Counted from the stretch's first letter, positions 10,198-30,752 are shown. The stretch: 58,280 nt of DNA from an uncultured Anaerolineales bacterium (GCA_964568065.1 CAZMOT010000003.1:1-58280); one strand, 5' to 3'. Made by a program: numbers and translations. The notes: generated by a model from the sequence alone, not told the origin.

Positions 10198-11346
10198 TCA
10201 GATCTCAGCCAGACGCTCCGCAATGGCGTGGAATTGTTGGCTAACTAGACTCTCTGGCTGCATCATTACCATCGGAATCCCTCGCTCTAGCGATTCGAAT
10301 GCCAGCTCGGGGGCCGGAGTGACTACTCCGGCGAGGTTGTGCTGTAACAATTCCTCTATTGTATCTTTAGTAAAAGTGGTTGTAGTGGGGGTCCTATTGA
10401 TCAGCACTACACTGATCCTGTGGGTAGTGAGATTCAGCGACTGAGTCATTTCACTTAACAGTGCCTGTGCCAGTGAGAGCGACGTACGTTGTGGCTCGAC
10501 GGTCACAAAGATATGATCGCAACTCGGCAGAATGTGACAAGTTGTCTCATCAAGACCCACCCCCAGGTCAAGAAGGAGATAGTCGGCCGTGGCCCCAAGA
10601 TACCGGACGATGGCCTCAGCGTGAGCCGGGAGTACAGGTGTTGCTGTTCCGGGCGGCTCAATCTGGCCAGTCAAGATCAGCAGGCCGGTCGCATGCTCCT
10701 CCAACTGAGCCTCCACCATCCTATCCTTGATCTGCTTGACTGGCTTATTCAACAGTCGCACCAATGTCCCCTGACGTCTCAGTCCCAACTGGATAGAGGC
10801 AGTCGCCATGCCAGATCGCATTTCGGCCAGGACGATCTTCTGCCCCTTCGCCAGGTCTTGGGCCAGGGCAACGGCGACGTTCACCGCCAGAGTGGTGGTA
10901 CCCACACCTCCCTTTGAACCCAGGAGGCCGAGAATCTTTGCCTGTGCCAGAGGCTGTCCACCCATTTGACCCCGCGCTGAGCGCAACAGCACGGCCTCTA
11001 CACGGGAAATCAATTCCTCCGGATGGATAGGCTTGGTCAGATAGTCATCTGCCCCGGCCTGAAACCCGGCCACTTTTTCGTCCACCTGCATTTTGGCAGT
11101 GAACATGATAATAGGCAGACTGGCTGTAGCGGGATCAGCACGGAGTCGGCGGCAAACCTCATAGCCGTCCACGTCTGGCATCATGATGTCCAGAATCATC
11201 AAGTCGGGGTTCTCCGTCTGGACCTTCGCCAAAGCCTGAGTACCTGACTGTGCAGCGACAATGTCATATCCCCGCCGCTGCAACATCAACCCAACTAACT
11301 TTACGCTTTCCAGGTGATCATCAACTATCATAATCTTCTTAACCAT
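10198..11346 (-). CDS. Response-regulator receiver domain fused to a ParA/MinD-like (CpaE-like) ATPase domain
   Basis: REC domain (IMIVDDH...DLMILDIMMPDVDG...TAK) followed by the deviant Walker A LGSKGGVGTTT. GGAGG RBS upstream of ATG 11346. Confidence 0.8.
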   Translation of the reverse strand: MVKKIMIVDDHLESVKLVGLMLQRRGYDIVAAQSGTQALAKVQTENPDLMILDIMMPDVDGYEVCRRLRADPATASLPIIMFTAKMQVDEKVAGFQAGADDYLTKPIHPEELISRVEAVLLRSARGQMGGQPLAQAKILGLLGSKGGVGTTTLAVNVAVALAQDLAKGQKIVLAEMRSGMATASIQLGLRRQGTLVRLLNKPVKQIKDRMVEAQLEEHATGLLILTGQIEPPGTATPVLPAHAEAIVRYLGATADYLLLDLGVGLDETTCHILPSCDHIFVTVEPQRTSLSLAQALLSEMTQSLNLTTHRISVVLINRTPTTTTFTKDTIEELLQHNLAGVVTPAPELAFESLERGIPMVMMQPESLVSQQFHAIAERLAEI

Positions 11347-11413
11347 TGTTGCCTCCACACGCTACTGTAGCACATAACGGGCTACTTGGCAAGCATAAAA
11401 TGAGAAAATGAGA

Positions 11414-17995: not shown

Positions 17996-18112
17996 GTCGC
18001 TCACCTCGCGCGGTGCCCAATGCCCGTGCATGCCCAGCGCATGCAATCCTTGGTGCTATTTTATCACAGATTGGGAGGGATTGTCAATCGTCATCACCTC
18101 GCATTTTCTGCC

Positions 18113-18140
18113 TGTAACTACTCTGTAACCCTGCCGTAAC
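18113..18140 (+). promoter_or_regulatory. Triple 11-bp-phased hexamer direct repeat TGTAAC-N5-TGTAAC-N5-CGTAAC (site 1)
   Basis: Hexamers start at 18113, 18124 and 18135. A -10-like TAGAAT lies 21 nt downstream at 18162-18167. The site sits in the divergent intergenic region upstream of the TPR-LCP gene. Confidence 0.6.
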
Positions 18141-18215
18141 GCCATTCCATCAGAGGGGCGGTAGAATATAAGATGAAACGCGGGGCGCAGCAGATGGAGC
18201 GGCTGTGCTCCTGCC

Positions 18216-20045
18216 ATGGAAGCGGAGACGATGACGATTACAGAGAAGCTATGGAGAGGAATGAGGGCAGCCCATGCCGGGCGGAACGCGGAGGCTCAAG
18301 CTGCTTTTCAGGCCGTGCTGCGCGAGGACCCGACCAACGAGACCGCGCTGGTATGGCTCGGTTACCTGGCCGACGACTCCCGCGCCAGCCTGAACTATAT
18401 CACTCAAGCGCTGGAGGCCCATCCACAGAGTCCACGCATTCACGCGGCGCTGAAGTGGACGTGGCGACGTACTGCTGCTTCCACCTCGGAAGCGGCCAGT
18501 GAAGAGCGTGAGTCCACTCCCCCAGTGCAGTCTTCCCGACGCCGACGGCGCTGGAAGGTGTACCAAACAGGGTTGGCCGCACTGTGGATGGTGCTCATGA
18601 TGTTTGCGCTGGTTGGATGGGTGATCAATCCACCGGCGTGGGCGGAGCCTCCGGCCGCAGCGGCAATGGCTGTCAGTTCTCCCAGTCCTCCCGCGCCGAT
18701 GACTACCGATCTTGACCTTCCTTCGGCGACTCCCACTCCCACCCCCATCTCTACCCCTGCCGGGACGCCATCTTCAACCTCTCCTGCATTCACGCCGACC
18801 CCCATCCCGACACCGACAACACCTCCTCCTCCGGGCGCTGATTTTGTGGTTCCAGAACCGTTTCCTACCATTGCCCCGACCGTCCTTGCTGCGGTCTCCA
18901 CTACGCTTCCCATTCCCACTCCTGTACCACCTGTTGCGGTGGCTGCCGACGCCATCAACATCGTCGTCCTGGGCAGCGACCAGCGGCCGGATTGGTCGGA
19001 GTGGCACACAGATGTCGTTCAAGTTGTCTCCATTCAGCGCGACCGGGGAGCAGTTTCTGTGATCTCCATCCCACGCGACCTATACCTCTACATCCCTGGC
19101 TTCTGGATGAGCCGGATCAACTTCGCCGACTTCTACGGGGAGACTTATGGCTACGAGGGAGGTGGCCCGGCGCTGGTGCGAGACACGCTGCTCTATAACC
19201 TGGGCATCCGGGTGGACTATTACGCCCGCACCAACTTCGACGGTCTGATTGGCGTCGTGGACACGGTAGGTGGAGTGGACATCCCCGTCCACTGCCATCT
19301 CAGCGACCACTGGCCCTATCCAGATGAGAACGGAGAGTATCCCATTCTGACCCTGGAGCCGGGGATACACCACATGGACGGGGAGACGGCTCTCTGGTAC
19401 GCTCGCTCACGGCTGACCACCAACGTCTTCTCACGCGAGCGTCGCCAGCAGCAAGTCCTCCAGGCTATCTGGCACAAGGCACGGGATGCAGGGATGCTCT
19501 CTCAGATTCCGGCTCTATGGAGTCAAGGGCAGGATATGGTGGAGACGGATCTGACGTTCACCGACATCCTGGATCTGGCACTGATAGCTCTCACTCTGGA
19601 GGACCAGAATGTGCGCTTCTACAACATCGGCGCGGATGTGTTAGACCCGTGGGTGACGCCCCACGGCGGATGGGTCTTCCTTCCCCGGTGGGAGGACGTT
19701 CAGCCCCTCCTGGCGGAGGCCATGGCCCCCGCTCCTGAGGCCCGTCTAGGCCGTGTCTACCTGACGGTTGATGTGTGGAATGGGACGCCTAACGAGGGCT
19801 GGGGCTGGCTGGCGGCGGATCGGCTGTATCGGGCTGGGTTCCCGGCGGTGGTCAATGAGGCAGACCGGCGGGACTATGCTGAGACCCAGTTGATCGTCCT
19901 CACCGAGCACACCAAGGGCACTGGGGTGGGGTACTTGCAGCAGATGTTCCAAATCCCAGATAGCCAGGTAATCCACCAGCCAGGTGGGTCCTCCCAGTTT
20001 GGCTTTCGCCTGATCCTTGGGGCAGATTATCAGACCTGCCCTTAA
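18216..20045 (+). CDS. TPR-like domain / TM / Pro-Thr-rich linker / LytR-CpsA-Psr (LCP) domain / LytR_C-like domain protein
   Basis: LCP core NIVVLGSDQRP...HTDVVQVVSI...VSVISIPRDLY. One TM segment (LAALWMVLMMFALVGWVI). The C-terminal V.VWNGT...AD...Q..I segment is typical of LytR_C. An alternative start is at 18231. Confidence 0.82.
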   Translation: MEAETMTITEKLWRGMRAAHAGRNAEAQAAFQAVLREDPTNETALVWLGYLADDSRASLNYITQALEAHPQSPRIHAALKWTWRRTAASTSEAASEERESTPPVQSSRRRRRWKVYQTGLAALWMVLMMFALVGWVINPPAWAEPPAAAAMAVSSPSPPAPMTTDLDLPSATPTPTPISTPAGTPSSTSPAFTPTPIPTPTTPPPPGADFVVPEPFPTIAPTVLAAVSTTLPIPTPVPPVAVAADAINIVVLGSDQRPDWSEWHTDVVQVVSIQRDRGAVSVISIPRDLYLYIPGFWMSRINFADFYGETYGYEGGGPALVRDTLLYNLGIRVDYYARTNFDGLIGVVDTVGGVDIPVHCHLSDHWPYPDENGEYPILTLEPGIHHMDGETALWYARSRLTTNVFSRERRQQQVLQAIWHKARDAGMLSQIPALWSQGQDMVETDLTFTDILDLALIALTLEDQNVRFYNIGADVLDPWVTPHGGWVFLPRWEDVQPLLAEAMAPAPEARLGRVYLTVDVWNGTPNEGWGWLAADRLYRAGFPAVVNEADRRDYAETQLIVLTEHTKGTGVGYLQQMFQIPDSQVIHQPGGSSQFGFRLILGADYQTCP

Positions 20046-20322
20046 CCCCATCGACAGCACCTGCTGCGATACCTTTGCTGCCTGCGCAGCCCAGAGTAGC
20101 TTTTTCGGCACTAACACGCGGGCCAAAGGCGCACATAATTGAGGGAGTGTTGAGATAAAGAGCAAGTCCAGCGCCGGTTGAGTGGAGCGAAGCGACGTAT
20201 CGAAACCAAGTGGGCTGCCCGTAGAGCCGCTTGCTTGGTCTCGATGCGTTTTGCTTAACAACCAGCTCACAGTGGGAGGAAGGAGAATCTCTCCCCTCAT
20301 TCCTGTGGATGAACTCTAACGT

Positions 20323-20350
20323 GCAACACCATTGTAACACAACTGTAACC
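20323..20350 (+). promoter_or_regulatory. Triple 11-bp-phased hexamer direct repeat TGCAAC-N5-TGTAAC-N5-TGTAAC (site 2)
   Basis: Hexamers start at 20323, 20334 and 20345. An AT-rich -10-like TATATT at 20373-20378 lies 22 nt downstream. The site is upstream of the bactofilin gene. Confidence 0.6.
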
Positions 20351-20417
20351 CCTTGTCCGCTCGCCCTATGTTATATTGCCTAGTGATGGCTCAAAACTAC
20401 CTGGAGCGCTGAAAGCC

Positions 20418-21644
20418 ATGGGCAAGGAACGACGGCACACGCCAGACACCACGGTCGGTCCGCAGGCCGCCTTGATTGGACACATGGACACTGATCAGCC
20501 ACTACGCATCTATGGGATCTTTGAAGGCGATCTCGAAGTCACCAACACGGTCTTCATTGATAAGGAAGGACTGGTGAACGCCAACGTCACGGCCGATCAC
20601 GTCATCGTGCAAGGGGTCGTCATCGGCAACGTCTGCGCTGAACGGGTCGAAATCCGCGCCAGTGGCAAGGTTTGGGGCAACGTCTGCGCCCAGAGTTTCT
20701 GTGTCGAGTCAGGCGGTTTTATCCGCGGGCAAGTTATTATCTCCCGCCAGACCGAGCACCAACTCAATACCCGCTTTCTAGAATCACTCGCCGACCCCAT
20801 CGTTCCCCCTCTGCAACCACTGTACGACGATGACCTGGATCACCTGTCGGCCGAACCGGAAGAGATCGCCCAAAAAGCCTCGGCTGTAGACGGCCTGCCG
20901 ATATCTCCCCAACCGGTGCACAGCAAGGAATCGTTGATCCGTGTCGCCGAAGCCAAGAACTGGACGAGCTTTCCACTGCAACTGGGGCTCCAGGCCGTTC
21001 GGCAGGCCTTGGCGGAGCAGGAAGCGTTGGTAGCGACTTTCTCCGCCAACATAGCCCACACCGGCAGCGAACGCGAAACGGCGCTGGTGCAGCACAACAC
21101 CGAACTGCGCGACGAACTCAAGTGTTCGCGCGTGACCGCCTCACAGCACCTGCAGAGCCTGGCCGAACTCCAGGTCGAACTGGACGAGACACGTCTGGCT
21201 CTGGAGACAGCCCAGGATGAGATCTCGCACCTAAACACTAACCTGACTGAGGCCAATGCTCAACTCCAAGGCCTGAGTGATGAGCTTGCTCGCAGCCAGG
21301 CTCGCTACGACCATCTGGTTGCTGAGACCCCCAAGGCGTCTGAGCAACTTCACAGACAACTGGCCGAGGCTAAGGCCGAACAGGATCGGGCGGCTGCCAA
21401 CTTCAATGCCGCCCTGGCCGAAAAAAAAGAGGTAGGAATCGCCCGCTTGCAGGCCGACCCTAAGACAAGCCGAAACCAGGTTGAGCAACAACAACAGGTA
21501 CACATCGCCTACTGTCTGACCTGCCACGGCCAGCGCCCCATGGCAGACGTGCGTGAAATCGTCATGCCCGACGGCCGCCGTACGGTCAAGGGACGCTGTA
21601 CTGCCTGTGGTGCCAGTCTCCTCAGCCTGATACCTTCGAACTAG
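20418..21644 (+). CDS. Bactofilin-domain protein with a long coiled coil and a C-terminal CxxC...CxxC zinc ribbon (DUF5679-like)
   Basis: The N-terminal beta-helical repeat (IFEGDLEVTNTVFIDKEGLVNANVTADHVIVQGVVIGNVCAERVEIRASGKVWGNV...) is typical of bactofilin/CcmA. The central part is Q/E/A/L-rich. The C-terminus reads CLTCHG...CTACG. I chose ATG 20418 because the track start (TTG 20376) overlaps the putative -10. Confidence 0.75.
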   Translation: MGKERRHTPDTTVGPQAALIGHMDTDQPLRIYGIFEGDLEVTNTVFIDKEGLVNANVTADHVIVQGVVIGNVCAERVEIRASGKVWGNVCAQSFCVESGGFIRGQVIISRQTEHQLNTRFLESLADPIVPPLQPLYDDDLDHLSAEPEEIAQKASAVDGLPISPQPVHSKESLIRVAEAKNWTSFPLQLGLQAVRQALAEQEALVATFSANIAHTGSERETALVQHNTELRDELKCSRVTASQHLQSLAELQVELDETRLALETAQDEISHLNTNLTEANAQLQGLSDELARSQARYDHLVAETPKASEQLHRQLAEAKAEQDRAAANFNAALAEKKEVGIARLQADPKTSRNQVEQQQQVHIAYCLTCHGQRPMADVREIVMPDGRRTVKGRCTACGASLLSLIPSN

Positions 21645-21671
21645 GGGGCTGTCTGGGAATGGCTGGCCGCC

Positions 21672-21764
21672 GTGGCTGTGCTGGCTGCCATGGGCCTGGT
21701 CCTGAGCGCGGGCCTGCTGGCCGAGCACTTTCTCATCGCCCTGGCGCTGAGCCACCAATCATAA
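21672..21764 (+). CDS. Candidate small hydrophobic peptide (24-30 aa)
   Basis: It is absent from the track because it is under 60 aa. The frame reads (V)AVLAAMGLVLSAGLLAEHFLIALALSHQS-stop with strongly G/C-biased third positions. Starts could be GTG 21672, GTG 21678 or ATG 21690. There is no clear RBS. Confidence 0.3.
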   Translation: MAVLAAMGLVLSAGLLAEHFLIALALSHQS

Positions 21765-21788
21765 TGCAACACAAGAGAGTAATGAATC

Positions 21789-22340
21789 ATGACCTACATC
21801 AAACTGGTCGTCACCGGGCCTTTTAGTGCTGGCAAGACAGCGCTCATCAATAGCGTCAACGAGATTCGCGGTGTGAACACCGATGTGGACATCGACGCAG
21901 GCCGCCAAGTCAAGCAGCAGACGACGGTGGCGATGGATTTTGGCCAGATCACGTTGCCCGATGGCCCCACGCTACACCTGGTTGGTACGCCGGGACAACA
22001 GCGATTTGCCTTCATGTGGGAGATGCTCATCATCGAGTGTAACGGCATACTGATGCTGGTGGACAGCAGCGATCCAAGTAGCTTTGCCGAGGCCAGGCGG
22101 ATGTTCGATTTTTTTGCTGTTCGTGCCAATGGCGTTCCGATGTTTGTCGCCGCCAACAAGCAGGATTTGCCCGGCGCGCTATCGCCTGATGAGGTGAGCC
22201 AAGCACTGAACTTGGTCGGCCTTGGACAGGCGGGGCGTGCGGTTGCTCTGTTGCCACCCCCGGGCTGCATCGCTTGCGACCGAAGCAGTGTATTGTCCGT
22301 CTTGGAAGCGATAGTGCCCTACCTGGCAGTCGGCCACTAA
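21789..22340 (+). CDS. Small Ras-like GTPase of the CvnD/MglA-like (ATP/GTP-binding protein) family
   Basis: G1 TGPFSAGKT, G3 LVGTPGQQRF (Asp replaced, as in conservon CvnD-type proteins) and G4 ANKQD. Length 183 aa. Confidence 0.8.
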   Translation: MTYIKLVVTGPFSAGKTALINSVNEIRGVNTDVDIDAGRQVKQQTTVAMDFGQITLPDGPTLHLVGTPGQQRFAFMWEMLIIECNGILMLVDSSDPSSFAEARRMFDFFAVRANGVPMFVAANKQDLPGALSPDEVSQALNLVGLGQAGRAVALLPPPGCIACDRSSVLSVLEAIVPYLAVGH

Positions 22341-22406
22341 GTGAAAACGGGAGGGTAACTGCTCAGCCATAGCTCCAAAAGATAGCCGATATAACACACC
22401 TGGCTC

Positions 22407-22489
22407 GGCCTGGATTGCCAAATCCAGGCCAAAGGCGATGAGATTAGATCGAATCAGTCTTTCAGCCGCCGGATCGCCAGATCCGGCGG
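22407..22489 (+). other. Two GC-rich perfect hairpins in the GTPase-Roadblock spacer
   Basis: Hairpin 1 is GGCCTGGAT-tgccaa-ATCCAGGCC (22407-22430). Hairpin 2 is CCGCCGGATC-gcca-GATCCGGCGG (22466-22489). Neither has a U-tract. Confidence 0.5.
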
Positions 22490-22523
22490 GAGCGGGTGAG
22501 TAGTTACACAGGAGGAAACGAAA

Positions 22524-23345
22524 ATGAACGAATCGCACAGAGGTGCCTTTTTAAAGGGAATTCTGCAGGGTCTCTATGGCACTCAGGGGAACATCCCCCC
22601 GGTACCAATGGGGGATCCTCTGAACAGCCTGCTGGGGCAGGTCATCCGACGACGGCCCTACATTTCGGCTCTGGCCCTGATCAGCCCCGGCGGACAACTG
22701 TGGGCCTCGGCGCTGCCGGGCGGCGTGGAGGCGGAAAGTGTGGCGGCGATGGCCGCGCCCGTCGCCTTGCTGGGGCGGCGTGTTGCCCTGGAGCAACTGA
22801 GATCCGATATGCGCCAGGCGTACGTCGAGGGGGAGGGTGGATACGCCATCTTGCGGGCTATCGGCGAAGCAGCAGTTCTGCTGACCATCGCCTCTGCCGG
22901 CGCCAACCTGGCCCTGGTCTTGCACGACGTGGATCTGCTTGAGGGTCACGTGGCCCAGATCTTGGGAGTCACCGTACCCGAGTCGGGCAAGTGGACTGAG
23001 GCTGCCACGTCCATCGAGCATTTGCGCAGGCTGATCAGCGAGAGGCCGACGTCTGAGGTGCTAGAGGAACGCCAGGATGACCTACGGGCCAAGCTCAACT
23101 CACTGGACATGGGCTTCTACCAGAAGCGAGTGGCTGCCATTCGTGCCAGACTGCAGGATCCCACCCAACTCGAAGAGATCAAGGACCTCGAAGAAATCGA
23201 GGCCGAGTTGCTGGCACTAGAGAGGGACGTGATGGCTACGTTAGAACAAGAAATGGTCCCTGCGACTGAACGGGCGGACCAACAGAATTCACTCTTGAGG
23301 AGGACACTTAAATGGTTAGCGTCGATGATCGAATCCGAAGACTAG
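22524..23345 (+). CDS. Roadblock/LC7 (MglB/CvnB-like) domain protein with a C-terminal coiled-coil extension
   Basis: AGGAGG RBS. The N-terminal region ISALALISPGGQLWASALPGG...AYVEGEGGYAILRAIGEAAVLLTIA follows the Roadblock pattern. The C-terminal roughly 120 aa are charged and helical. Confidence 0.72.
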   Translation: MNESHRGAFLKGILQGLYGTQGNIPPVPMGDPLNSLLGQVIRRRPYISALALISPGGQLWASALPGGVEAESVAAMAAPVALLGRRVALEQLRSDMRQAYVEGEGGYAILRAIGEAAVLLTIASAGANLALVLHDVDLLEGHVAQILGVTVPESGKWTEAATSIEHLRRLISERPTSEVLEERQDDLRAKLNSLDMGFYQKRVAAIRARLQDPTQLEEIKDLEEIEAELLALERDVMATLEQEMVPATERADQQNSLLRRTLKWLASMIESED

Positions 23346-23773
23346 GCGGGTTGCTGCGCCAGGTGCAGGGACTCACGCCTAATATCGAAGCCTCGGCTAT
23401 CGTCAGTCCCGAGGGATTGGTACTGGCGTCGGCCTTGCCAGCCGGCACCGACGAGCAGGAGATTGGTGCTATGTCGGCGGCCGTGCTCACGCTGGGCGAG
23501 CGCATTGCGAGAGAGCTACTGTCGGGTCAGGTCAGGCAGGTATACGTCGAAGGAGAGGGCACCGGATATGTCTTTTTGACCTCCATCGGTGAGGAGGCTA
23601 TCCTGGTCACATTGGCCAACCCCGACGCCAAGCTTGCTCTGGTCTTTATGGACATGGGGCGCATCGCCTCCGAGGCCCAGAAGATCTTGCAGGAGGACAT
23701 ACTGGCCGTGACTCAGGCCGATCAGCAACCAGCAATCAGTGTCCAGCAACCAGTGCCCAGTGCAGTGTCGTAG
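23312..23773 (+). CDS. Roadblock/LC7 (MglB/CvnB-like) domain protein
   Basis: GAGGAGG RBS. SAIVSPEGLVLASALPAGTDEQEIGAMSAAVLTLGERIA...VYVEGEGTGYVFLTSIGEEAILVTLA. It overlaps the previous gene by 34 nt. Confidence 0.78.
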   Translation: MVSVDDRIRRLGGLLRQVQGLTPNIEASAIVSPEGLVLASALPAGTDEQEIGAMSAAVLTLGERIARELLSGQVRQVYVEGEGTGYVFLTSIGEEAILVTLANPDAKLALVFMDMGRIASEAQKILQEDILAVTQADQQPAISVQQPVPSAVS

Positions 23774-24073
23774 CCAATCCGCCTACTACATTACCTCGAC
23801 CGTGCTGTGTCATCTGCTGGAGGCCAGCCTCAAGCTGCAGCGGATGGGATCACCGTACAGCGATGAAGTAGTGGAGTGCATCATCGAGAAACTGGGACAG
23901 TCGCTTTCCTCTGTGTCGTACGGTAGGGTTGCGCCGCTAGCAAGGACCCATGTATGGAACAGAAACGAGCTACCTGGCGCTCTTCACCTGGTTCCCTGTA
24001 TGATCCATATTCAGGGTGTAAGGTGCAGTACCCAGCGCCATAGCTCTTTATGGTAGTCACCAGAGTGAGAACA

Positions 24074-25900
24074 ATGAAACCCATTCAGATTTCTGTAAAC
24101 CATCGTCTTTTTGCCGCCTTAGGGCTCGGGGCGATCCTGGCGCTGCTGTTGCTCACAGTATCCCAGGTCGGGGCTCAACCCCCTGTACCTCACGACATAG
24201 TCTTCCTGATTGACAACAGCCAATCGGTGCGCACAGGCGAGGGAACACCAGATGGACAGCCCACCGATCCTGCACTGGTGCGGTTACGCCTGACCCGCTT
24301 TGTGATCACCGTGCTCGGTCTTGACCCCGCCAGTGCCAACCAGCGCGTGGGAGTGATCAGTTTTGCAGACCACACAGAGACTCTGATGCCAATGACACCG
24401 GTTCAGGATTGGTCAAGGGCGGATTTTGCCGAGATCCGCGCGGTAAGACAGGGAGGAACAGACTTTGCGCTCGCCCTGGACGCTGCCTCAGAGATGCTCG
24501 CTTCCGACTGTTCGCCAGACGTCCGTTGTTGTGACGCCATTATGGTAACCGACGGAATCTTCGAGAAATACAAAGCTCGGCGAGACCAGCAGGCGACCGA
24601 AGATGCCTTGCAGAGTCTGCGCTCCCGCGGCGTATCGGTACACCTGTTGACGTTTGGAGCGGGAGATCAGAAATGGCAGGAATTCCTGACCGACGACCTC
24701 ATTTCTACCTACCAGCCGAGCGTCACCTCGGCCCCTCCCGACCAGGTGTACGGCACCGTGCTCCGCAATCTGGGAGCTGAAGCGCTGCTGGCCGGCCTGA
24801 CGCCTGTGGAGGTGGTCGGTGAGGAGATCGTTGCCCTGACCGTCCACAACTTCCGCACCTGGACGCGCTACCAGATTTTGCCGGACTCACCGCTGACCGT
24901 GACGTTCCTCCACGCAGGCCAGGTAGTGACGCCGGTCGTGGTGGGCACTGAGTACACGTTGTTCCAGCCGCAAGCCGGGGAGTGGAACGTGCGGCTGCAG
25001 GGTGATGGACTGGCCTACTACCAGCAAACCGGTGAGGGCGTCGCTGACCTTTCGCTGTACCTGCGTGCACCGGAGGGGGTCTTGACGTTGGGGGAGGACG
25101 TAACAGTGCGCGCTGGGCTCACAGCAGATGGTGCACCTGTGACCGACCTGATCCCCTTCACCATTACGGCGGCAATCAACGGTGCAGCGGGTATCATCGG
25201 TCCGCTGAACCTGGAACTGGATAAGACGATTGGCCTGTTCGCAACCACGGCACCGGCGGACCGGTTCAAGAGCGGTGTGTACACCGTGACACTGGCGGCA
25301 CAGAGCAGCGTTCCAGGCTTAGGGGTGCAGCCTGTGACGGAGCAATTCGAGATAGCCGCACTACCGACGCTTGCAATGACGGTAACGCCGACCGGACCAA
25401 TCCGGCCCGGGCAGTCTGTGCATGTGATTGTGACAGTTGAAAACTGGAGACCGGGATATGTGCCCAGGCTTCGATTTTATGGCCCTGCGGCGGTTAGCAT
25501 CGACACACCCACCTGGAGCACCCAAGGGACGGGAGTGTTCACCGGCACGATAACGATGACTTCTGGCATCACGTCCTCTTTCGCCATAGTAGCTCAACTG
25601 GTGGGAGGAGCGGGGACACCTGCGGGCGAACTGTTTGACGCTATTGAAACTACACCGCAACTTGTTGAATTCACCACGATGTCCCCAGTTGTTATGACAG
25701 CCCAATACTCGATGTGGCTAACGATCCCTCTGTGCGCCTTGCTCACCATCGGCGCATTTGCTTGGTGGCGCTTTTATGGCACAAGTAGACAACGAAAACG
25801 ACGAATAAAACAGTTGCGCGACGAGGTAGAGACATTGGCCCGTATAGTGGGAGAAGTACCAGAGGAGTCTGGTGCTATTATTGAATCGTGGAATGTTTAG
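24074..25900 (+). CDS. Membrane-anchored von Willebrand factor A (vWA) domain protein
   Basis: N-terminal signal or TM segment, then the MIDAS motif DIVFLIDNSQSV. It continues with beta-rich repeats, a C-terminal TM segment (WLTIPLCALLTIGAFAWW) and a basic cytosolic tail. Confidence 0.75.
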   Translation: MKPIQISVNHRLFAALGLGAILALLLLTVSQVGAQPPVPHDIVFLIDNSQSVRTGEGTPDGQPTDPALVRLRLTRFVITVLGLDPASANQRVGVISFADHTETLMPMTPVQDWSRADFAEIRAVRQGGTDFALALDAASEMLASDCSPDVRCCDAIMVTDGIFEKYKARRDQQATEDALQSLRSRGVSVHLLTFGAGDQKWQEFLTDDLISTYQPSVTSAPPDQVYGTVLRNLGAEALLAGLTPVEVVGEEIVALTVHNFRTWTRYQILPDSPLTVTFLHAGQVVTPVVVGTEYTLFQPQAGEWNVRLQGDGLAYYQQTGEGVADLSLYLRAPEGVLTLGEDVTVRAGLTADGAPVTDLIPFTITAAINGAAGIIGPLNLELDKTIGLFATTAPADRFKSGVYTVTLAAQSSVPGLGVQPVTEQFEIAALPTLAMTVTPTGPIRPGQSVHVIVTVENWRPGYVPRLRFYGPAAVSIDTPTWSTQGTGVFTGTITMTSGITSSFAIVAQLVGGAGTPAGELFDAIETTPQLVEFTTMSPVVMTAQYSMWLTIPLCALLTIGAFAWWRFYGTSRQRKRRIKQLRDEVETLARIVGEVPEESGAIIESWNV

Positions 25901-25920
25901 GGCACCGTGCTGATTCCGAA

Positions 25921-26197
25921 CTCACCTTTGACCAATGCAAATTGGGGATCGCGCTGTTGGTGGCGGAGCGACTGTATCGAGCCGGTTCCCGGCAGTGGTC
26001 AGCGAGCCGGACCGGTCGAAATACGCCAAGACCTAGTTGGTCGCCTTCAGCGAGCACGTCAAAAGCGCCAGAAGGGAATACCTGCAGCGGATGCTCAGGT
26101 TCCAAACAGCCAGGTGCTCCACCAGTCAGGTGGGTCCTCCGAGCTTGGCTTTCGTCCGAGCCTTGGGGCGGATTATCAAACCCGCCCTCGACCCTAG
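25921..26197 (+). pseudogene. Decayed fragment of a third LCP/LytR_C copy (last 80-90 codons only)
   Basis: The nucleotide sequence aligns by eye with the 3' ends of 18216-20045 and 27306-30752. The homologous peptides are split over three frames (AERLYRAG / QLVAFSEH / QVLHQSGGSSELGFR..LGADYQTRPRP-stop). There is an in-frame TAG where the intact copies have CAG (gaccTAGttg). Confidence 0.7.
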
Positions 26198-26275
26198 CAA
26201 TGCTTCTAAATCCCAGAGCGACAACGCGGTCACCACGACCTGGGACGGTCTTGCTATTCTCCTGGCCTTGTTCTC

Positions 26276-26303
26276 AGTAACCAGCCTGTAACATGGCTGT
26301 AAC
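26276..26303 (+). promoter_or_regulatory. Triple 11-bp-phased hexamer direct repeat AGTAAC-N5-TGTAAC-N5-TGTAAC (site 3)
   Basis: Hexamers start at 26276, 26287 and 26298. TATAAT at 26325-26330 lies 21 nt downstream. The site is upstream of the ParA / PAS-GAF-LCP operon. Confidence 0.6.
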
Positions 26304-26551
26304 GTCCTCCCACCTAAAGCTATGTATAATAGAAGCGCAATAAATGCTTGCATCGCCGCTGTGCTGTGTCAGACCTTACACGTTGGGCGAGGATGTGACG
26401 GAACTGATCATTACCGTCTCCGGTTGGGCGGAGGTCAGCGAGTAGTTCGACAGCCAAACCTGCTGGGAGTCATCCTGTCCTCACACGGTGATGGAATAAG
26501 GTAAGTCATACGTAAGCGGTACCCTGGGTTTGTTGGAGGGTGAAATTAGCT

Positions 26552-27313
26552 ATGACCATAACTATTGCCATTGGTAATCAGAAAGGTGGAGTGGCTAAGA
26601 CCACCACGTGCCTGTCTCTGGGAGCCTGTCTGGCCGAGATGGGACAAATTGTCCTACTGATTGACCTGGACCCCCAGACCAACCTCACCCTCTCGCTGGG
26701 ATTGAAGCCAGAGAAACTGCGCTACACGGTGGACGATGCCTTACTGGGGAATACTTCGCTGGTGAGCGTCAGTCGCGAGAGTGAGGCATTCGGTCTGGAT
26801 ATCATTCCTGCCAACCGGGGGCTGGCTGCCCTTGACAAAGTCCTTTATGGGCGACGGAACTATGAGTTTTTCTTAAGGCGTGGGCTGGATGCTATGGACG
26901 AGAACTTCTACGACGTTGTCCTGATTGACTGTCCGCCCTCCTTTGGCACGCTAACTCTCAATGCCTTGACCGCGGCAGACTTGCTCATTATCCCTGTCCA
27001 GTGTGAGTACTACGCCGTGCACTCGTTGCGTCGAACCATAGAACTGGCGAAACTGGTGCGCGAGAAAACCAACCCGCGGCTGGTCTACCGTTTGCTGGTG
27101 ACAATGTACGACCAGCGCAACAAGATCTGCCGGATCCTGCTCGACTATATGCGGCAAGGGCTGAACAAGGTTCTCTTCGAGACTATTATCGAGGTAGACA
27201 CCAAGTTGAAAGAGAGCCCAGTGTTTGGTCAGCCAATTACGCTTTACGCACCAGGGACCCGAGGTGCTCAACAGTACCGGGCACTTGCAAAGGAGTTAAT
27301 GAATCATGGATAA
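26552..27313 (+). CDS. ParA/Soj-family deviant Walker-A ATPase
   Basis: IAIGNQKGGVAKTTT, LLIDLDPQTNLT and VLIDCPPS motifs. GGAGGG RBS upstream of ATG 26552. Confidence 0.85.
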   Translation: MTITIAIGNQKGGVAKTTTCLSLGACLAEMGQIVLLIDLDPQTNLTLSLGLKPEKLRYTVDDALLGNTSLVSVSRESEAFGLDIIPANRGLAALDKVLYGRRNYEFFLRRGLDAMDENFYDVVLIDCPPSFGTLTLNALTAADLLIIPVQCEYYAVHSLRRTIELAKLVREKTNPRLVYRLLVTMYDQRNKICRILLDYMRQGLNKVLFETIIEVDTKLKESPVFGQPITLYAPGTRGAQQYRALAKELMNHG

Positions 27314-30300
27314 CGACAAGGAGATGAAAGTTCAACTTGAGGATCTATTTTCCGAGTTGGAAGACCCCATAGTAGCCAAGGAAGATATGCTCGTGTCTCT
27401 GAAAGGTCTGATAGAGGATGTCACTGAGCGCAAGCAGACCCAGAAACAACGGATCATCTTCCGCGCCCTGGTGGAGAACGGCATAGACGCTATCACTGTC
27501 AGCGACCTAGAAGGCTGCCAGACCTACAGCAACCGCGCCTGCTACGAGGTCTTTGGCTACGACCACGAAAACCAGGAGATGAATGACCTGTCGCTGGTCA
27601 ATCTCTGGCCCGCAGAGGACACTTTCACTTTTCCCGGTCAGGTGCTTCCTCAGGCCAAGGCCGGAAGCTGGAGCGGCGAAGTGCAGCTCAAGCGCAGAGG
27701 CGGCACCCTGTTCGATGCCTACCTGACTGCCTTCCCTGTGCTGGACAAGGCAGGTCAACCCATCAGCATAGCCATCATCATCCGCGACATCTCCGAGCGC
27801 AAGCGACTGGAGCGCGAACGCAATACAATGCACGAGAACCGCGCCCGTCAGGTGCGGCTCATCACCGAGGTAGCCCAGGAGATTGCTGCCGCCCCGGCTC
27901 TGGACGAGCTCTACCGCCGCGTCGTAACCTTGGTCAAAGAACGCTTCGGCTATTACCACGTTCAGCTCTATCGCTACGATCCCGAACTGGACGACATGGT
28001 GGTCGTAGAGAGCTACGTCCAGGCCGGGGGGGAGATGAGCGCTGCCAGCCACAGATCGTCCCACAATGGTAATAGAGGCATCGTCGTCACGGCATCGGCC
28101 ACCGGGCAGCCTGTCCTGGTCTCCGACGTATCCCAGAACCCCCACTGGGTGGCCCACCCCGACTTGCCCGATGTCAAAGGTGAGTTGGTCGTGCCCATCA
28201 AGTTGCGCGGCCAAGTGCTGGGTGTGCTGGACGTGCTGAGCGACACGGTCGGCACACTCACCCGTGAGGACGAAATCGTGCTCCTGGAGTTGGCCGGCCA
28301 AATCGCCAGTGCTATGGAGAAGACCCGCTTGCTCGAAGAAGCTAATATCCTCCGCCAGTTTGGCAAAGCCCCCGAAGGGATTGGCTGGATTACATTAGAA
28401 GGTAGCATTATCATCTACATCAACCCCACTCTCTGCAGCATCCTCGGTGAAGCCAAACCAGAAGACACCTTCGGCAGATCCATCATCTCCTACTACCCCA
28501 GAGAATTGCGGCAACGCGTACAAAATGAAATCCTGCCTACCGTCCTGCGAGAAGGTCAATGGATTGGTGAATTGGCATTCCTCTCAGCCCGGGGCAAAAT
28601 CACTTCTACCATTCAGAGCATCTTCCTTATCCGTGACGAAAATGGGAATCCACTCTATTTAGCCAACGTGGTAACCGACATTACCGAACAGAAGCAGGCT
28701 GAATTCCTCCTGAACAAGCGCGCCGAGCAGATCAACTGCCTGAACGAAATTGGCCGGAGGATAGATGAGACCCCGCAGGTACCCGAGTTCCTGCAATGGG
28801 TAGCGGAGCGCATCCCACCGGCCATGCAGTATCCGGACGTGTGTGTGGCTGCCGTTGAGTTCGAAGACACCGACCACAGCGGTCGGGCAGTCTACGGTGT
28901 AGCCAAGGCGGTGGAGATGCCGTGTCAGATCGTGGAGGGTCTGAGTATCGGCGGTGAGACGGTGGGCCAGATGTACCTCTCGTATACTCAGGCGCACGAC
29001 TTTCTCGACGAGGAGAGAGCACTGCTGGGTGACATCGCTAGACGGGTGAGCAACTACATCGAGAGTCGCCGCCTGTTAGAGCAGACCCGGGATGCGCTGA
29101 CCGAGGTGAAGACTACCCATCAGCATTACATGCCCGGCCAGTGGACCAGGCTCGCCCCCCAGCAGACATCTCCCGAATCTGCCCAGCCAGACACGCCCCC
29201 CCCCGGCGACGATGGGCTGCAGGCTCGTCCGCGGGGCAGCCGCGTGGGCGCAGCGCTGCGGAAAACGTGGCAACGTGTGATCACGGGGCTGTCCGCCCTG
29301 GTGATATTGTTCTTGCTGGGAACGCTGCTCACGTGGACGTTCGGTCTCCAGGTGCAGGCAGATCCTCCGGCGGCGCTGGCTGTGGCCCTACCCTTCAGCT
29401 CTCCTTCGCCAACGGTTGCGCTTTTTCCCCGCCTCACGACGACGCCCAGCCTCATCTATCGCCCGATCAGATCGCCCCCGCACGTTTCTACCCCCTCATC
29501 CCCCCCCAGCCTGGCGCCGACTCTCTCTTCTTCGCACGCCTCCTTCATTGTTCCAGAGCCGTTCCCTGCCATTGATCCGAACGTCCCTGCCACGGTCTCC
29601 ACTACACTTCCCATCCCCACCCCCGTCCCGCCTGTCCCGGTGGCCGCCGACGCCGTCAACATCGTCGTCCTGGGCAGCGACCGGCGACCGGACTGGTCGG
29701 AGTGGCACACCGACGCCGTCCACGTTGTCTCCATCCAGCGCGACCGGGGAGAGGTCTCCGTCATCTCCATCCCACGCGACGTATACCTCTACGTCCCTGG
29801 TTTCTGGATGAGTCGGATCAACTTCGCCGATTTCTACGGGGAGGCTTATGACTACGAGGGGGAAGGCCCGGCGCTGGTGCGGGACACGCTGCTCTATAAC
29901 CTGGGCATCCGGGTGGACTATTTCGTCCGCACCAACTTCGATGGCCTGATCGGCATCGTAGACACGTTGGGCGGAGTGGACATCCCGGTCCACTGTCGCC
30001 TCAGCGACTACTGGCCCTACCCAGACGAGAACGGGGAGTATCCCATCCTGACCATGGAGCCGGGAATACACCACCTGGACGGGGAGACCGCTCTCTGGTA
30101 CACTCGTTCGCGGATGACGACCAGCGTCTTCTCCCGCGACCGGCGCCAGCAGCAAGTCCTCCGGGCTATCTGGCACAAGGCACGGGATGCAGGGATGCTC
30201 TCTCAGGTTCCGGCCCTGTGGAGACAAGGGCGAGACATGGTGAAGACCGACCTGACGCTGACCGACATTCTGGATCTGGCACAGATAGCTTTCACGCTGG

Positions 30301-30752
30301 AAGATCAGAACGTGCGCTTCTACAACATCGGCGCGGACGAGGTGACCCCGTGGACGACACCCTACGGCGGTGGCGTCTTTCTCCCTCGCTGGGAGGACAT
30401 CAAGCCCATCTTGGCAGAGGCGATGGCCCCCATACCTGAGGCCCGTCTGAGCCGCACCTATATGCCAGTCGAGGTATGGAACGGAACATCCAATCCAGAC
30501 TGGGACCTGCTGGCGGCGGATCGGTTGTATCAAGCCGGGTTCCCGGCGGTGGCCGGTGAGCCGGAGCGGCGAGACTACGCCGAGACCCAGTTGATCGTCT
30601 TCAGCGAGCACATCAAGGGCACCGGGGTGGAGTACCTGCAGCAGACGTTCCAGATTCCGGACGACCAGGTGATCCACCAGCCACACGTATCCTCCGAGTT
30701 TGGATTCCGCCTGATCCTCGGGGCGGATTACCAGACCTGCCCTCAACCTTAA
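27306..30752 (+). CDS. PAS-GAF-PAS cytoplasmic sensor region fused through one TM segment and a Pro/Ser-rich linker to an LCP (LytR-CpsA-Psr) plus LytR_C ectodomain
   Basis: The start overlaps the parA stop by 8 nt. PAS-like segments (FRALVENGIDAITVSDLEG..., ...IIIRDISERK; GWITLEGSIIIYINPT...VVTDITEQK). GAF-like segment (YHVQLYRYD...GELVVPIKLRGQVLGVLDV). TM segment LSALVILFLLGTLLTWTF. LCP core NIVVLGSDRRP...VSVISIPRDVY. Confidence 0.82.
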   Translation: MDNDKEMKVQLEDLFSELEDPIVAKEDMLVSLKGLIEDVTERKQTQKQRIIFRALVENGIDAITVSDLEGCQTYSNRACYEVFGYDHENQEMNDLSLVNLWPAEDTFTFPGQVLPQAKAGSWSGEVQLKRRGGTLFDAYLTAFPVLDKAGQPISIAIIIRDISERKRLERERNTMHENRARQVRLITEVAQEIAAAPALDELYRRVVTLVKERFGYYHVQLYRYDPELDDMVVVESYVQAGGEMSAASHRSSHNGNRGIVVTASATGQPVLVSDVSQNPHWVAHPDLPDVKGELVVPIKLRGQVLGVLDVLSDTVGTLTREDEIVLLELAGQIASAMEKTRLLEEANILRQFGKAPEGIGWITLEGSIIIYINPTLCSILGEAKPEDTFGRSIISYYPRELRQRVQNEILPTVLREGQWIGELAFLSARGKITSTIQSIFLIRDENGNPLYLANVVTDITEQKQAEFLLNKRAEQINCLNEIGRRIDETPQVPEFLQWVAERIPPAMQYPDVCVAAVEFEDTDHSGRAVYGVAKAVEMPCQIVEGLSIGGETVGQMYLSYTQAHDFLDEERALLGDIARRVSNYIESRRLLEQTRDALTEVKTTHQHYMPGQWTRLAPQQTSPESAQPDTPPPGDDGLQARPRGSRVGAALRKTWQRVITGLSALVILFLLGTLLTWTFGLQVQADPPAALAVALPFSSPSPTVALFPRLTTTPSLIYRPIRSPPHVSTPSSPPSLAPTLSSSHASFIVPEPFPAIDPNVPATVSTTLPIPTPVPPVPVAADAVNIVVLGSDRRPDWSEWHTDAVHVVSIQRDRGEVSVISIPRDVYLYVPGFWMSRINFADFYGEAYDYEGEGPALVRDTLLYNLGIRVDYFVRTNFDGLIGIVDTLGGVDIPVHCRLSDYWPYPDENGEYPILTMEPGIHHLDGETALWYTRSRMTTSVFSRDRRQQQVLRAIWHKARDAGMLSQVPALWRQGRDMVKTDLTLTDILDLAQIAFTLEDQNVRFYNIGADEVTPWTTPYGGGVFLPRWEDIKPILAEAMAPIPEARLSRTYMPVEVWNGTSNPDWDLLAADRLYQAGFPAVAGEPERRDYAETQLIVFSEHIKGTGVEYLQQTFQIPDDQVIHQPHVSSEFGFRLILGADYQTCPQP

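What the first reader, a model, noticed from the sequence alone, without database searches (positions are those of the whole stretch)
18113..26303. Triple, 11-bp-phased nGTAAC direct repeats upstream of three transcription units (candidate operator of a local regulon)
Seen, all on the plus strand and all intergenic. Site 1 (18113-18140) is TGTAAC-tactc-TGTAAC-cctgc-CGTAAC. Site 2 (20323-20350) is TGCAAC-accat-TGTAAC-acaac-TGTAAC. Site 3 (26276-26303) is AGTAAC-cagcc-TGTAAC-atggc-TGTAAC. Each site ends 21-22 nt upstream of an AT-rich -10-like hexamer (TAGAAT 18162, TATATT 20373, TATAAT 26325). Each precedes a plus-strand unit: the TPR-LCP gene, the bactofilin-GTPase-Roadblock-vWA unit, and the ParA plus PAS-GAF-LCP unit. 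By eye I saw only isolated single hexamers elsewhere in the window. Housekeeping promoters here (rpsT, rpsA, hrcA) have ordinary TTGACA-like -35 boxes with 16-17 nt spacers, so this is not the generic -35. Established knowledge: hexamer direct repeats phased at one helical turn and overlapping the -35 position are the classical binding architecture of OmpR/PhoB-family response regulators (Pho boxes). In Bacillus, PhoP controls wall anionic-polymer genes. Inference: a winged-helix regulator that is not encoded in this window co-regulates the three units.
Basis: partly seen in the sequence, partly recalled or inferred. Interest (0 to 1): 0.65.

Follow-up and report, generated by a model that had tools for sequence, protein, structure and literature searches.

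The report
Conserved activator boxes before cell-envelope genes
Three promoters in this uncultured marine-sediment Chloroflexi (Anaerolineae-like) genome carry three evenly spaced GTAAC boxes where a normal -35 element would sit; this is the classical docking site of a two-component (OmpR/PhoB-type) activator, and it is kept in front of the same cell-wall and cell-shape genes in dozens of related genomes.

Summary
There are three plus-strand intergenic sites of form YGTAAC-N5-TGTAAC-N5-YGTAAC: 3 pattern matches against 0 in 100 shuffles. Each ends 21-22 nt upstream of a TAnAAT-like -10 box and has no -35 box. Site 2 is off by one base in the finding.

RNA contigs from a metatranscriptome begin 24-32 nt after each -10 box, while DNA contigs of the same sample run straight across these regions.

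The same architecture sits upstream of orthologues elsewhere:
- the bactofilin-GTPase-Roadblock operon in two distant loci found by protein homology;
- TPR-LCP or ParA/sensor-LCP genes in 30 of 40 GC-rich contigs from a complete metagenome pattern scan, and in three named Anaerolineales/Chloroflexota MAGs.

Only the hexamers and the -10 box are conserved.

GTAAC-type repeats at 11-bp phase with the same distance to the -10 box also precede pstS, a Na/Pi transporter, amt and glnA in other phyla. The half-site matches the WalR, MtrA and GlnR consensus sequences.

Best reading: a class-II operator of an OmpR/PhoB-family winged-helix activator that defines a conserved envelope and morphogenesis regulon. 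This is a known kind of element with a new regulon, of moderate interest.

The parts
18113..18140 (+). Operator 1: TGTAAC-N5-TGTAAC-N5-CGTAAC, three head-to-tail half-sites at 11-bp phase
   Evidence: The orthologous site lies upstream of TPR-LCP genes in L126 and in about 25 metagenome loci.
18162..18167 (+). -10 box TAGAAT, 21 nt after operator 1. There is no -35 box (the position reads ACgcca).
   Evidence: The X8 RNA contig starts at 18195, with no RNA from 18021 to 18194, while DNA contigs span the region.
18216..20045 (+). Unit 1: TPR-LytR/CpsA/Psr (LCP) gene
   Evidence: Pfam. RNA depth is 26-31 against DNA depth of about 13.
20322..20349 (+). Operator 2: TGCAAC-N5-TGTAAC-N5-TGTAAC. The first half-site is degenerate (GGCAAC in the 94%-identical strain L001).
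   Evidence: The same triple site plus N21 plus TATAAT lies upstream of the bactofilin operon in L009 and L010.
20371..20377 (+). -10 box: TATATT at 20372-20377 (22-nt spacer), or TTATAT at 20371-20376 (21-nt spacer)
   Evidence: and alignment. The RNA contig starts at 20409, which lies after the GGAG ribosome-binding site, so that contig end is eroded rather than a transcription start.
20418..25900 (+). Unit 2: bactofilin-DUF5679 (20418-21644), Ras/Arf-like GTPase (21789-22340), two Roadblock/LC7 proteins (22524-23345, 23312-23773), vWA protein (24050-25900)
   Evidence: Pfam. One RNA contig runs from 20409 to 22668.
26276..26303 (+). Operator 3: AGTAAC-N5-TGTAAC-N5-TGTAAC
   Evidence: The orthologous site lies upstream of ParA(-LCP) in L141, L235 and at least 5 metagenome loci.
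26325..26330 (+). -10 box TATAAT, 21 nt after operator 3
   Evidence: The RNA contig starts at 26354.
26540..30752 (+). Unit 3: ParA-like ATPase (26540-27313) and PAS-GAF-PAS-LCP sensor enzyme (27306-30752)
   Evidence: Pfam. RNA depth is 25.
18058..18087 (-). Divergent canonical promoter of the PDZ-GAF histidine-kinase gene (TTGACA-N18-TAAAAT with a TG extension). Its -35 box lies 25 nt upstream of operator 1.
   Evidence: An RNA contig covers 17758-18020.

Best explanation
Each site is the operator of an activator-dependent sigma-A-type promoter. Three head-to-tail half-sites are centred at about -36, -47 and -58. Their extended consensus is C-YGTAAC-CnGCC, repeated every 11 bp. An OmpR/PhoB-family winged-helix protein binds them on one face of the helix. 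It is most likely a phosphorylated response regulator encoded elsewhere in the genome.

The promoter-proximal protomer sits where the -35 box is missing and recruits RNA polymerase through sigma region 4. This is class II activation, as PhoB does at pho boxes.

The regulator thereby co-activates two LCP wall-polymer ligases, a ParA-like ATPase, and a bactofilin / small-GTPase / Roadblock / vWA module. This envelope and morphogenesis regulon is conserved across Anaerolineae-like Chloroflexota.

Shown here: the motif, its non-random occurrence, its fixed geometry, its conservation before orthologues, and transcript starts downstream.

Inferred, not shown: the type of protein that binds, activation rather than repression, and the identity and signal of the regulator. 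By target function and half-site, I favour a WalR/MtrA-like envelope regulator over PhoB or GlnR.
For: 1. The pattern is non-random. It gives 3 matches against 0 in shuffles, and GTAAC pairs occur only inside the sites. In about 400 kb of related loci, GTAAC-N6-GTAAC occurs only once outside triple sites.

2. Protein-first footprint. Bactofilin homologues in L009 and L010 have GTPase 71-73%, Roadblock 71% and vWA 62% identity to the window. They carry YGTAAC-gacct-TGTAAC-ccgct-TGTAAC-N21-TATAAT, with spacers unlike the window's.

3. Pattern-first evidence. A complete metagenome scan gave 114 loci. Of the 40 with GC >= 0.56, 25 have a TPR-LCP homologue and 5 a ParA homologue directly downstream. 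The named MAGs L126 (Anaerolineales) -> TPR-LCP, and L235 (Anaerolineales) and L141 (Chloroflexota) -> ParA(+PAS-LCP), show the same.

4. Across 30 distinct sites, only the three hexamers, the C before each, and gTAnAAT are near 2 bits. The flanks are 0.1-0.8 bit.

5. Geometry. In the cross-phylum scan the gap to the -10 box is 21 nt in 59 of 136 gap assignments, against 11-22 for each other gap from 19 to 24. Housekeeping promoters here have TTGACA and these three do not.

6. Transcription. X8 RNA contigs begin 28, 32 and 24 nt after the -10 boxes. The rpsA control contig begins 21 nt after its -10 box. DNA contigs from the same sample are continuous across all three regions.

7. The same architecture precedes classical OmpR-family targets: pstS (Methylomirabilis, Methylovulum), a Na/Pi cotransporter (Prevotellaceae), and amt and glnA (Chloroflexi, Dehalococcoidia).

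8. The half-site matches WalR TGTWAH-N5-TGTWAH (PMC4168254), GlnR GTnAC-n6-GTnAC (PMC3087709) and MtrA RTAACAAT-ttn-RTAACAAT (PMC3353115).
Against: - No binding protein was identified. There is no OmpR-type gene in the window or next to the LCP and ParA targets in about 45 related loci.
- The response regulators beside the bactofilin operon in L009 and L010 are only 41% identical to each other, so they are not orthologues. That adjacency is therefore weak evidence.
- There are three strong half-sites, not two or four. The fourth in-phase slot is only weakly conserved. The stoichiometry is therefore unclear for a family that binds as dimers.
- Transcript starts come from assembled contigs, not from mapped 5' ends. 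One contig end (20409) lies downstream of the ribosome-binding site, so it is not a true start.
- The metagenome and genome scans required a -10-like box in the pattern, so that part of the architecture is partly there by construction.
Confidence: 0.75

Rival explanations
1. The sites are this lineage's Pho boxes. PhoB/PhoP~P activates the LCP, ParA-LCP and bactofilin units under phosphate starvation, analogous to Bacillus PhoP control of wall anionic-polymer genes.
For: - TGTAAC-type triple and quadruple repeats with the same distance to the -10 box precede pstS in Methylomirabilis/Methylovulum and a Na/Pi cotransporter in Prevotellaceae.
- LCP enzymes attach phosphate-rich wall polymers (established knowledge).
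- The response regulator beside the L009 operon scores nearly as well on PhoB (221 bits) as on MtrA (225 bits), both below the curated cut-offs.
Against: - None of the 40 GC-rich loci in the complete metagenome scan has a pst or pho gene of Anaerolineae type downstream. The 4 PstS hits are 83-90% identical to Methylomirabilis PstS and have a fourth GTCAC repeat and a 22-nt gap.
- All three units are well transcribed in situ in sediment. The LCP and ParA-LCP units reach about 40-50% of the rpsA contig depth. That is not expected of a starvation-only regulon, though this inference is weak.
Confidence: 0.12
2. The sites belong to a Chloroflexota-wide GlnR-like global regulator. This would be an orphan OmpR-type protein that also controls nitrogen genes.
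For: - In other Chloroflexi the same GTAAC x3 array precedes amt (L202, L205) and glnA (L133), followed by a fourth GAAAC repeat as in actinobacterial GlnR boxes (PMC3087709).
- In L202 a 103-aa stand-alone Trans_reg_C protein lies between two such sites.
- An earlier scan note (e1-767906) raised the same idea. It is a lead only.
Against: - The envelope-type sites lack the GAAAC b-site. Their fourth slot reads TCCACC or TTTGCC at 0.4-0.8 bit.
- No nitrogen gene appears among the Anaerolineae-type hits.
- The amt and glnA loci come from other Chloroflexi lineages.
Confidence: 0.08
3. The repeats are overlapping ECF-sigma promoters. Repeat 1 would be a GTAAC -35 box and repeat 3, 16 nt downstream, a CGTA -10 box. 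The element would then not be an activator array.
For: - Repeats 1 and 3 are separated by exactly 16 nt. Site 1 reads TGTAAC-N16-CGTAAC.
- TGTAAC is the -35 box of Bacillus sigma-X (own knowledge).
Against: - Only 3 of 30 distinct sites have C at the first base of repeat 3. The rest read TGTA.
- The middle repeat, which would be spacer in an ECF promoter, is invariant.
- A gTAnAAT box is conserved at a fixed 21-22 nt downstream, including in loci found by protein homology.
Confidence: 0.03
4. The similarity is due to duplication or common descent of promoter segments, or to a dispersed repeat, without regulatory meaning.
For: The two LCP genes share a recent duplication of about 1.2 kb, and a decayed LCP 3' fragment lies upstream of site 3 (earlier notes e1-4457160 and e1-4457164; chimeric contigs).
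Against: - The alignment of the three window promoters with L009, L126 and L235 shows identity only at the hexamers and the -10 box.
- Conservation persists at 42-70% protein identity.
- There are no copies inside genes.
Confidence: 0.02

Closest known systems
E. coli PhoB / pho box and OmpR-PhoB-family class II activation in general
   Same: - Head-to-tail half-sites at 11-bp phase.
- A fixed distance to the -10 box.
- A missing -35 box whose place is taken by the array.
- The core TGTAA(C) resembles CTGTCAT.
   Different: - There are three strong half-sites instead of two or four. The last strong one ends 21 nt (10 + 11) from the -10 box, so the slot next to the -10 box is only weakly conserved.
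- The targets are envelope and cytoskeleton genes, not phosphate genes.
- The regulator is unidentified.
WalR/YycF/VicR boxes of Bacillota (TGTWAH-N5-TGTWAH; PMC4168254)
   Same: TGTAAC-N5-TGTAAC is an exact match to the consensus. WalR controls cell-wall metabolism genes.
   Different: - The phylum is different (Chloroflexota).
- The site is a triple, not a double, repeat.
- No walRK-type operon was seen.
- The response regulators found near one target in relatives score below the YycF cut-off: 191-200 bits against 340.
MtrA of Actinomycetota (RTAACAAT-ttn-RTAACAAT; PMC3353115)
   Same: - An 8-bp direct repeat with a 3-bp linker (11-bp period) and a GTAAC core.
- A cell-wall and division regulon.
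- An activator when located upstream of or at the -35 box.
- MtrA is the top NCBIfam hit of the L009 and L010 response regulators.
   Different: The scores are below the equivalog cut-off: 211-225 bits against 300. No mtrB or lpqB context was seen. The hexamer is followed by C/G-rich, not AAT, bases.
GlnR boxes of actinomycetes (GTnAC-n6-GTnAC / gTnAc-n6-GaAAc; PMC3087709)
   Same: The a-site is identical (GTAAC) and the 11-bp register is the same. Tandem arrays occur at strongly regulated promoters.
   Different: There is no GAAAC b-site and no nitrogen genes among the targets.
Cyanobacterial SphR Pho boxes (8-bp PyTTAAPyPy(T/A) repeats 3 nt apart; PMC4195498)
   Same: These are arrays of direct repeats at 11-bp phase bound by a PhoB homologue. 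That they come in threes is my own recollection; the cited paper states only the 8-bp repeat and the 3-nt spacing.
   Different: The half-site sequence and the regulon differ.

Membership tests
OmpR/PhoB-family (winged-helix) activator operator, class II | Two or more direct (head-to-tail) half-sites of 6-8 bp at 10-11 bp phase | tested here: met
   Three hexamers occur at exact 11-bp phase in all three window sites and in 30 distinct related sites.
OmpR/PhoB-family (winged-helix) activator operator, class II | Fixed position relative to the -10 box, overlapping or replacing the -35 box | tested here: met
   The gap is 21-22 nt in the window, L009, L010, L126, L141 and L235. A 21-nt gap is preferred (59 of 136) in the cross-phylum scan. 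No TTGACA-like box is present, while rpsA, hrcA and the kinase promoters have one.
OmpR/PhoB-family (winged-helix) activator operator, class II | Bound by a protein with a Trans_reg_C winged-helix domain | not testable with these tools
   No such gene is in the window.
OmpR/PhoB-family (winged-helix) activator operator, class II | Transcription starts a few bases downstream of the associated -10 box | tested here: inconclusive
   RNA contigs start 24-32 nt after the -10 boxes, against 21 nt for the rpsA control. DNA contigs are continuous across the regions. This is consistent, but contig ends are not mapped 5' ends.
WalR (YycF/VicR) regulon box | Sequence TGTWAH-N5-TGTWAH | tested here: met
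   TGTAAC-N5-TGTAAC is present in sites 1, 2 and 3. The consensus is from PMC4168254.
WalR (YycF/VicR) regulon box | A WalR/WalK orthologue is present (Bacillota-specific essential system) | tested here: inconclusive
   The organism is Anaerolineae-like, judged from the titles of the closest loci. The response regulators near targets in L009 and L010 score 191-200 bits against the 340 cut-off for YycF. The genome could not be searched.
Pho box (PhoB/PhoP/SphR regulon) | The same box lies upstream of pstS, phoA or phoU genes in the same lineage | tested here: inconclusive
   None of the 40 GC-rich metagenome hits is an Anaerolineae-type pst gene. The pattern demanded a TAnAAT box, and the organism's own pst locus was not available.
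GlnR box (actinomycete type) | An a-site GTnAC followed 6 nt later by a b-site GaAAC, upstream of amtB, glnA and similar genes | tested here: not met
   a-sites are present. The slot after repeat 3 reads TCCACC or TTTGCC at 0.4-0.8 bit. The targets are not nitrogen genes.
ECF sigma promoter (GTAAC-N16/17-CGT.) | A conserved CGT-type -10 box 16-17 nt after the AAC -35 box, with a non-conserved spacer | tested here: not met
   Only 3 of 30 sites have CGTA at that position. The 'spacer' contains an invariant TGTAAC.

The most novel reading that the evidence does not exclude
The GTAAC x3 box may be the operator of a Chloroflexota counterpart of WalR (Bacillota) and MtrA (Actinomycetota). That would be a third master envelope regulator of the monoderm 'Terrabacteria', one that is constitutively active during growth. 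Its conserved core regulon would couple wall-polymer ligation (two LCP enzymes, one with PAS-GAF sensor domains) to a ParA ATPase and, in some lineages, to a bactofilin / MglA-like GTPase / Roadblock / vWA polarity module. Its three-half-site operator would imply an unusual binding stoichiometry: a trimer, or a dimer plus a sigma-contacting monomer.
Probability: 0.3. Interest if true: 0.6.

Novelty: new member of a known kind. Interest (0 to 1): 0.42.

Why it matters
Anaerolineae are abundant, mostly uncultured filamentous bacteria. Almost nothing is known about how their envelope is built or regulated.

A sharply defined, conserved operator gives a sequence handle on a regulon. That regulon links LCP wall-polymer ligases, a ParA-type ATPase, and a bactofilin / small-GTPase / Roadblock module that has no assigned function.

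The operator can be used to list the full regulon in any Anaerolineae genome. It can also be used to fish out the regulator by DAP-seq or EMSA, and to test whether monoderm phyla share a WalR/MtrA-like logic of wall homeostasis.

As a mechanism it is classical, so the value lies in the regulon, not in the principle.

Tried and rejected
1. Whole-genome motif scan and genome download. I used the window, about 400 kb of related loci, and collection scans instead.

This shows that chance and unrelated hits swamp large collections, so a -10 box was added to later patterns.

4. Looking for the regulator:
- There is no Trans_reg_C gene in the window. A tblastn with PhoB found only the REC domain of a REC-ParA fusion at 10198-11358.
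- None lies near the LCP or ParA targets in about 45 related loci.
- The response regulators next to the bactofilin operon in L009 and L010 looked promising but are only 41% identical to each other. The L010 kinase is only 29% identical to the window's GAF kinase.
- I therefore rejected neighbourhood as evidence of the regulator's identity.

5. A fourth in-phase repeat. None exists upstream, and only a weak T/C-rich slot downstream.

6. A paralogous origin of the three promoters was rejected by alignment.

7. The conserved CCGTCAA-like word 7-30 nt upstream of many sites is best read as TTGAC -35 boxes of divergent promoters, because its distance from the sites varies. It is not part of the operator.

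rpsA was used as the control instead.
Full report
**Observation**

The three sites exist as described.
- Site 1, 18113-18140: TGTAAC-tactc-TGTAAC-cctgc-CGTAAC.
- Site 2: TGCAAC-accat-TGTAAC-acaac-TGTAAC. It lies at 20322-20349, one base left of the stated coordinates.
- Site 3, 26276-26303: AGTAAC-cagcc-TGTAAC-atggc-TGTAAC.

The shorter GTAAC-N6-GTAAC gives five matches, all inside the sites, against 0.04 expected. Single TGTAAC hexamers are not enriched (15 against 11).

Each site is followed after 21-22 nt by TAGAAT (18162), TATATT (20372) or TATAAT (26325). With a 17-nt spacer the -35 position reads ACgcca, ACccct and ACgtcc. By contrast, the rpsA, hrcA and divergent histidine-kinase promoters of the same window have TTGACA with 16-18 nt spacers.

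- TPR-LCP;
- bactofilin-DUF5679, a Ras/Arf-like GTPase, two Roadblock proteins and a vWA protein;
- a ParA-like ATPase and a PAS-GAF-PAS-LCP protein.

**Source and transcription**

The window comes from a marine-sediment metagenome organism that is present in many runs.

In a metatranscriptome of one such sample (X8), assembled RNA contigs begin at 18195, 20409 and 26354. That is 28, 32 and 24 nt after the three -10 boxes. There is no RNA over 18021-18194 or 20197-20408, and little upstream of 26354.

DNA contigs of the same sample (X3) and of another (X1) run uninterrupted through all three regions. The RNA gaps are therefore not assembly artefacts.

As a control, the rpsA contig begins 21 nt after that promoter's -10 box.

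Contig ends are not mapped 5' ends. The 20409 end lies downstream of the GGAG ribosome-binding site, so it is eroded. Even so, all three units clearly start between the repeat array and the start codon.

Contig depths suggest the units are well expressed in situ:

| Feature | Depth |
|---|---|
| LCP (RNA) | 26-31 |
| ParA-LCP (RNA) | 25 |
| Bactofilin operon (RNA) | 10.5 |
| rpsA (RNA) | 59 |
| DNA | about 13 |

**Conservation, protein first**

The bactofilin-DUF5679 protein has few relatives.
- A 94%-identical strain (L001, L002) keeps all three sites.
- Two distant loci, L009 and L010, have the same operon. Identities to the window are GTPase 71-73%, Roadblock 71%, vWA 62% and bactofilin domain 55-57%. 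It is preceded by CGTAAC/TGTAAC-gacct-TGTAAC-ccgct-TGTAAC, 21 nt, then TATAAT. The spacers are unrelated to those of the window.
- A third clade (L003-L008) has a different operon make-up, a canonical TTGACG...TGATACAAT promoter and a long leader, and no triple repeat. The bactofilin unit therefore belongs to the regulon only in some lineages.

**Conservation, pattern first**

It still returned three named relatives:
- L126 (Anaerolineales): the site precedes a 610-aa TPR-LCP orthologue.
- L235 (Anaerolineales) and L141 (Chloroflexota): it precedes ParA followed by a PAS-LCP gene.

A complete scan of JGI metagenome contigs used GTAAC-N5-TGTAAC-N5-YGTAAC-N21/22-TANAAT and gave 114 loci. Of the 40 with GC >= 0.56:
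- 25 have a TPR-LCP homologue directly downstream (42-70% identity over the full length);
- 5 have a ParA homologue (74-78%).

Across 30 distinct sites, only the three hexamers, the C before each, and gTAnAAT approach 2 bits. Upstream flanks, spacers and the fourth in-phase slot carry 0.1-0.8 bit.

In about 400 kb of these loci, GTAAC-N6-GTAAC occurs only once outside a triple site.

In these genomes the LCP unit and the ParA-LCP unit lie in different neighbourhoods. The regulon is therefore defined by the operator, not by the local clustering seen in this window.

**What kind of element**

The cross-phylum scan shows the same design in front of textbook targets of OmpR/PhoB-family regulators:
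- pstS in Methylomirabilis and Methylovulum;
- a Na/Pi cotransporter in many Prevotellaceae and Bacteroidales, with that phylum's TAnnTTTG box;
- amt and glnA in other Chloroflexi and Dehalococcoidia.

In those cases a fourth repeat (GTCAC, GAAAC or CGTAAT) fills the slot 10-11 nt from the -10 box. This explains why a 21-nt gap after the third repeat dominates the scan: 59 of 136 gap assignments, against 11-22 for each other gap. Many of these hits are orthologous promoters, however, so the counts are not independent.

[quoted passage not shown] It also shares its core and register with MtrA's RTAACAAT-ttn-RTAACAAT (PMC3353115).

The most economical reading is a class II activator array for a winged-helix protein of this family.

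**Which regulator**

This remains open.
- The window encodes two GAF histidine kinases and a REC-ParA fusion, but no Trans_reg_C protein.
- None is found beside the LCP or ParA targets in related loci.
- OmpR-family regulators do lie next to the bactofilin operon in L009 and L010. They are only 41% identical to each other and sit in different contexts: beside an MCP gene in one, and with a GAF kinase behind an inserted transposase in the other.
- They score highest on MtrA, then on PhoB, RpaB and YycF, all below the curated cut-offs.

I favour a dedicated WalR/MtrA-like envelope regulator for three reasons: the nature of the targets, the absence of pst and nitrogen genes among Anaerolineae-type hits, and the good expression in situ. 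This preference is inference.

A Pho-type or GlnR-type regulator is not excluded. An ECF-sigma reading (repeat 1 as the -35 box, repeat 3 as a CGTA -10 box) fits site 1 by spacing. It fails in 27 of 30 sites and does not explain the invariant middle repeat or the conserved TAnAAT box.

**Limits**
The genome-wide enrichment test and the inventory of regulators could therefore not be done.
- Both collection scans included a -10-like box in the pattern.
- The genome scan was truncated.
- RNA evidence comes from assembled contigs of two metatranscriptomes.

**Verdict**

The element is of a well-known kind. Similar GTAAC arrays have been noted repeatedly in this scan, including in another Anaerolineae genome. 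These notes are leads, not evidence.

What is new is the conserved regulon it defines in an uncultured class.

Noticed in passing
L202:6304-6331 and 6870-6897; L202:6392-6703: In a groundwater Chloroflexi MAG, two GTAAC x3 + GAAAC arrays flank a 103-aa protein that consists only of a Trans_reg_C winged helix with no receiver domain. The second array precedes an ammonium transporter. L205 (amt) and L133 (glnA, Dehalococcoidia) have the same array. This looks like a GlnR-box-type nitrogen regulon outside the Actinomycetota, possibly with a receiver-less regulator.
   Followed up: partly
L125, L142, L151, L152, L158, L172, L186, L226, L227, L233 and others: Many Prevotellaceae and Bacteroidales genomes carry four to five TGTAAC/CGTAAC repeats at 11-bp phase, ending at a TAnnTTTG box. 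In L125 these lie upstream of a Na/Pi cotransporter gene. This is probably the Pho box of that order.
   Followed up: partly
L170, L129, L127, L189 (Methylomirabilis) and L191 (Methylovulum); L244, L279, L297, L312: The pstS promoters of NC10 bacteria and of a MAG labelled as a gammaproteobacterial methanotroph share nearly the same TGTAAC x3 + GTCAC array. Their PstS N-termini look alike by eye, and metagenome PstS hits are 83-90% identical to the Methylomirabilis protein. This could be horizontal transfer or a mis-binned contig.
   Followed up: no
window 18058-18087 (minus strand): A strong canonical promoter (TTGACA-N18-TAAAAT with a TG extension) for the PDZ / 10-TM / 4xGAF histidine kinase lies back-to-back with operator 1. 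Its -35 box is 25 nt from the first repeat, so a protein bound at the operator could also influence the kinase gene. Similar TTGAC words on the opposite strand occur 7-30 nt upstream of many related sites.
   Followed up: partly
related sites; window about 18150-18157 and 26314-26319: A semi-conserved GAAGC/AAAGC word lies about 5 nt upstream of the -10 box in most LCP-type and ParA-type promoters (0.5-0.9 bit). It is out of phase with the GTAAC repeats, and its role is unknown.
   Followed up: no
L249:5612-5667 and L295:1687-1740: Two contigs from one study carry almost the same triple-repeat promoter and the first ~25 nt of transcript. The downstream genes differ: an adenylate-cyclase-AAA-TPR protein of 1459 aa in one, and a secreted beta-helix protein in the other. 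This may be a portable promoter or a shared small leader.
   Followed up: no
L347:1-200: A tandem array of at least 15 copies of the 11-bp unit TGTAACTATAA. It is a satellite-like expansion of the same half-site register.
   Followed up: no
L003:9735-9765, L005:2815-2845, L007:70-100: In the clade whose bactofilin operon also encodes a GH43-like protein and an ~830-aa protein, the operon has a conserved TTGACG-N..-TGATACAAT promoter. This is followed by a leader of about 170-240 nt instead of the GTAAC array. L005 keeps a residual TGTAAC-N5-TGTAAA near the gene start.
   Followed up: partly
window 18849-19211 against 29545-30752: RNA and DNA contigs of several runs join the two LCP paralogues ('goes back 8652'). 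This is an assembly effect of the ~1.2-kb duplication of the LCP catalytic module.
   Followed up: no
window 10198-11358 (minus strand): A receiver domain is fused to a ParA/MinD-type ATPase. It lies a few genes from the large histidine kinase and in the same window as the operator-controlled ParA. It is a possible non-transcriptional output of the same signalling network.
   Followed up: no
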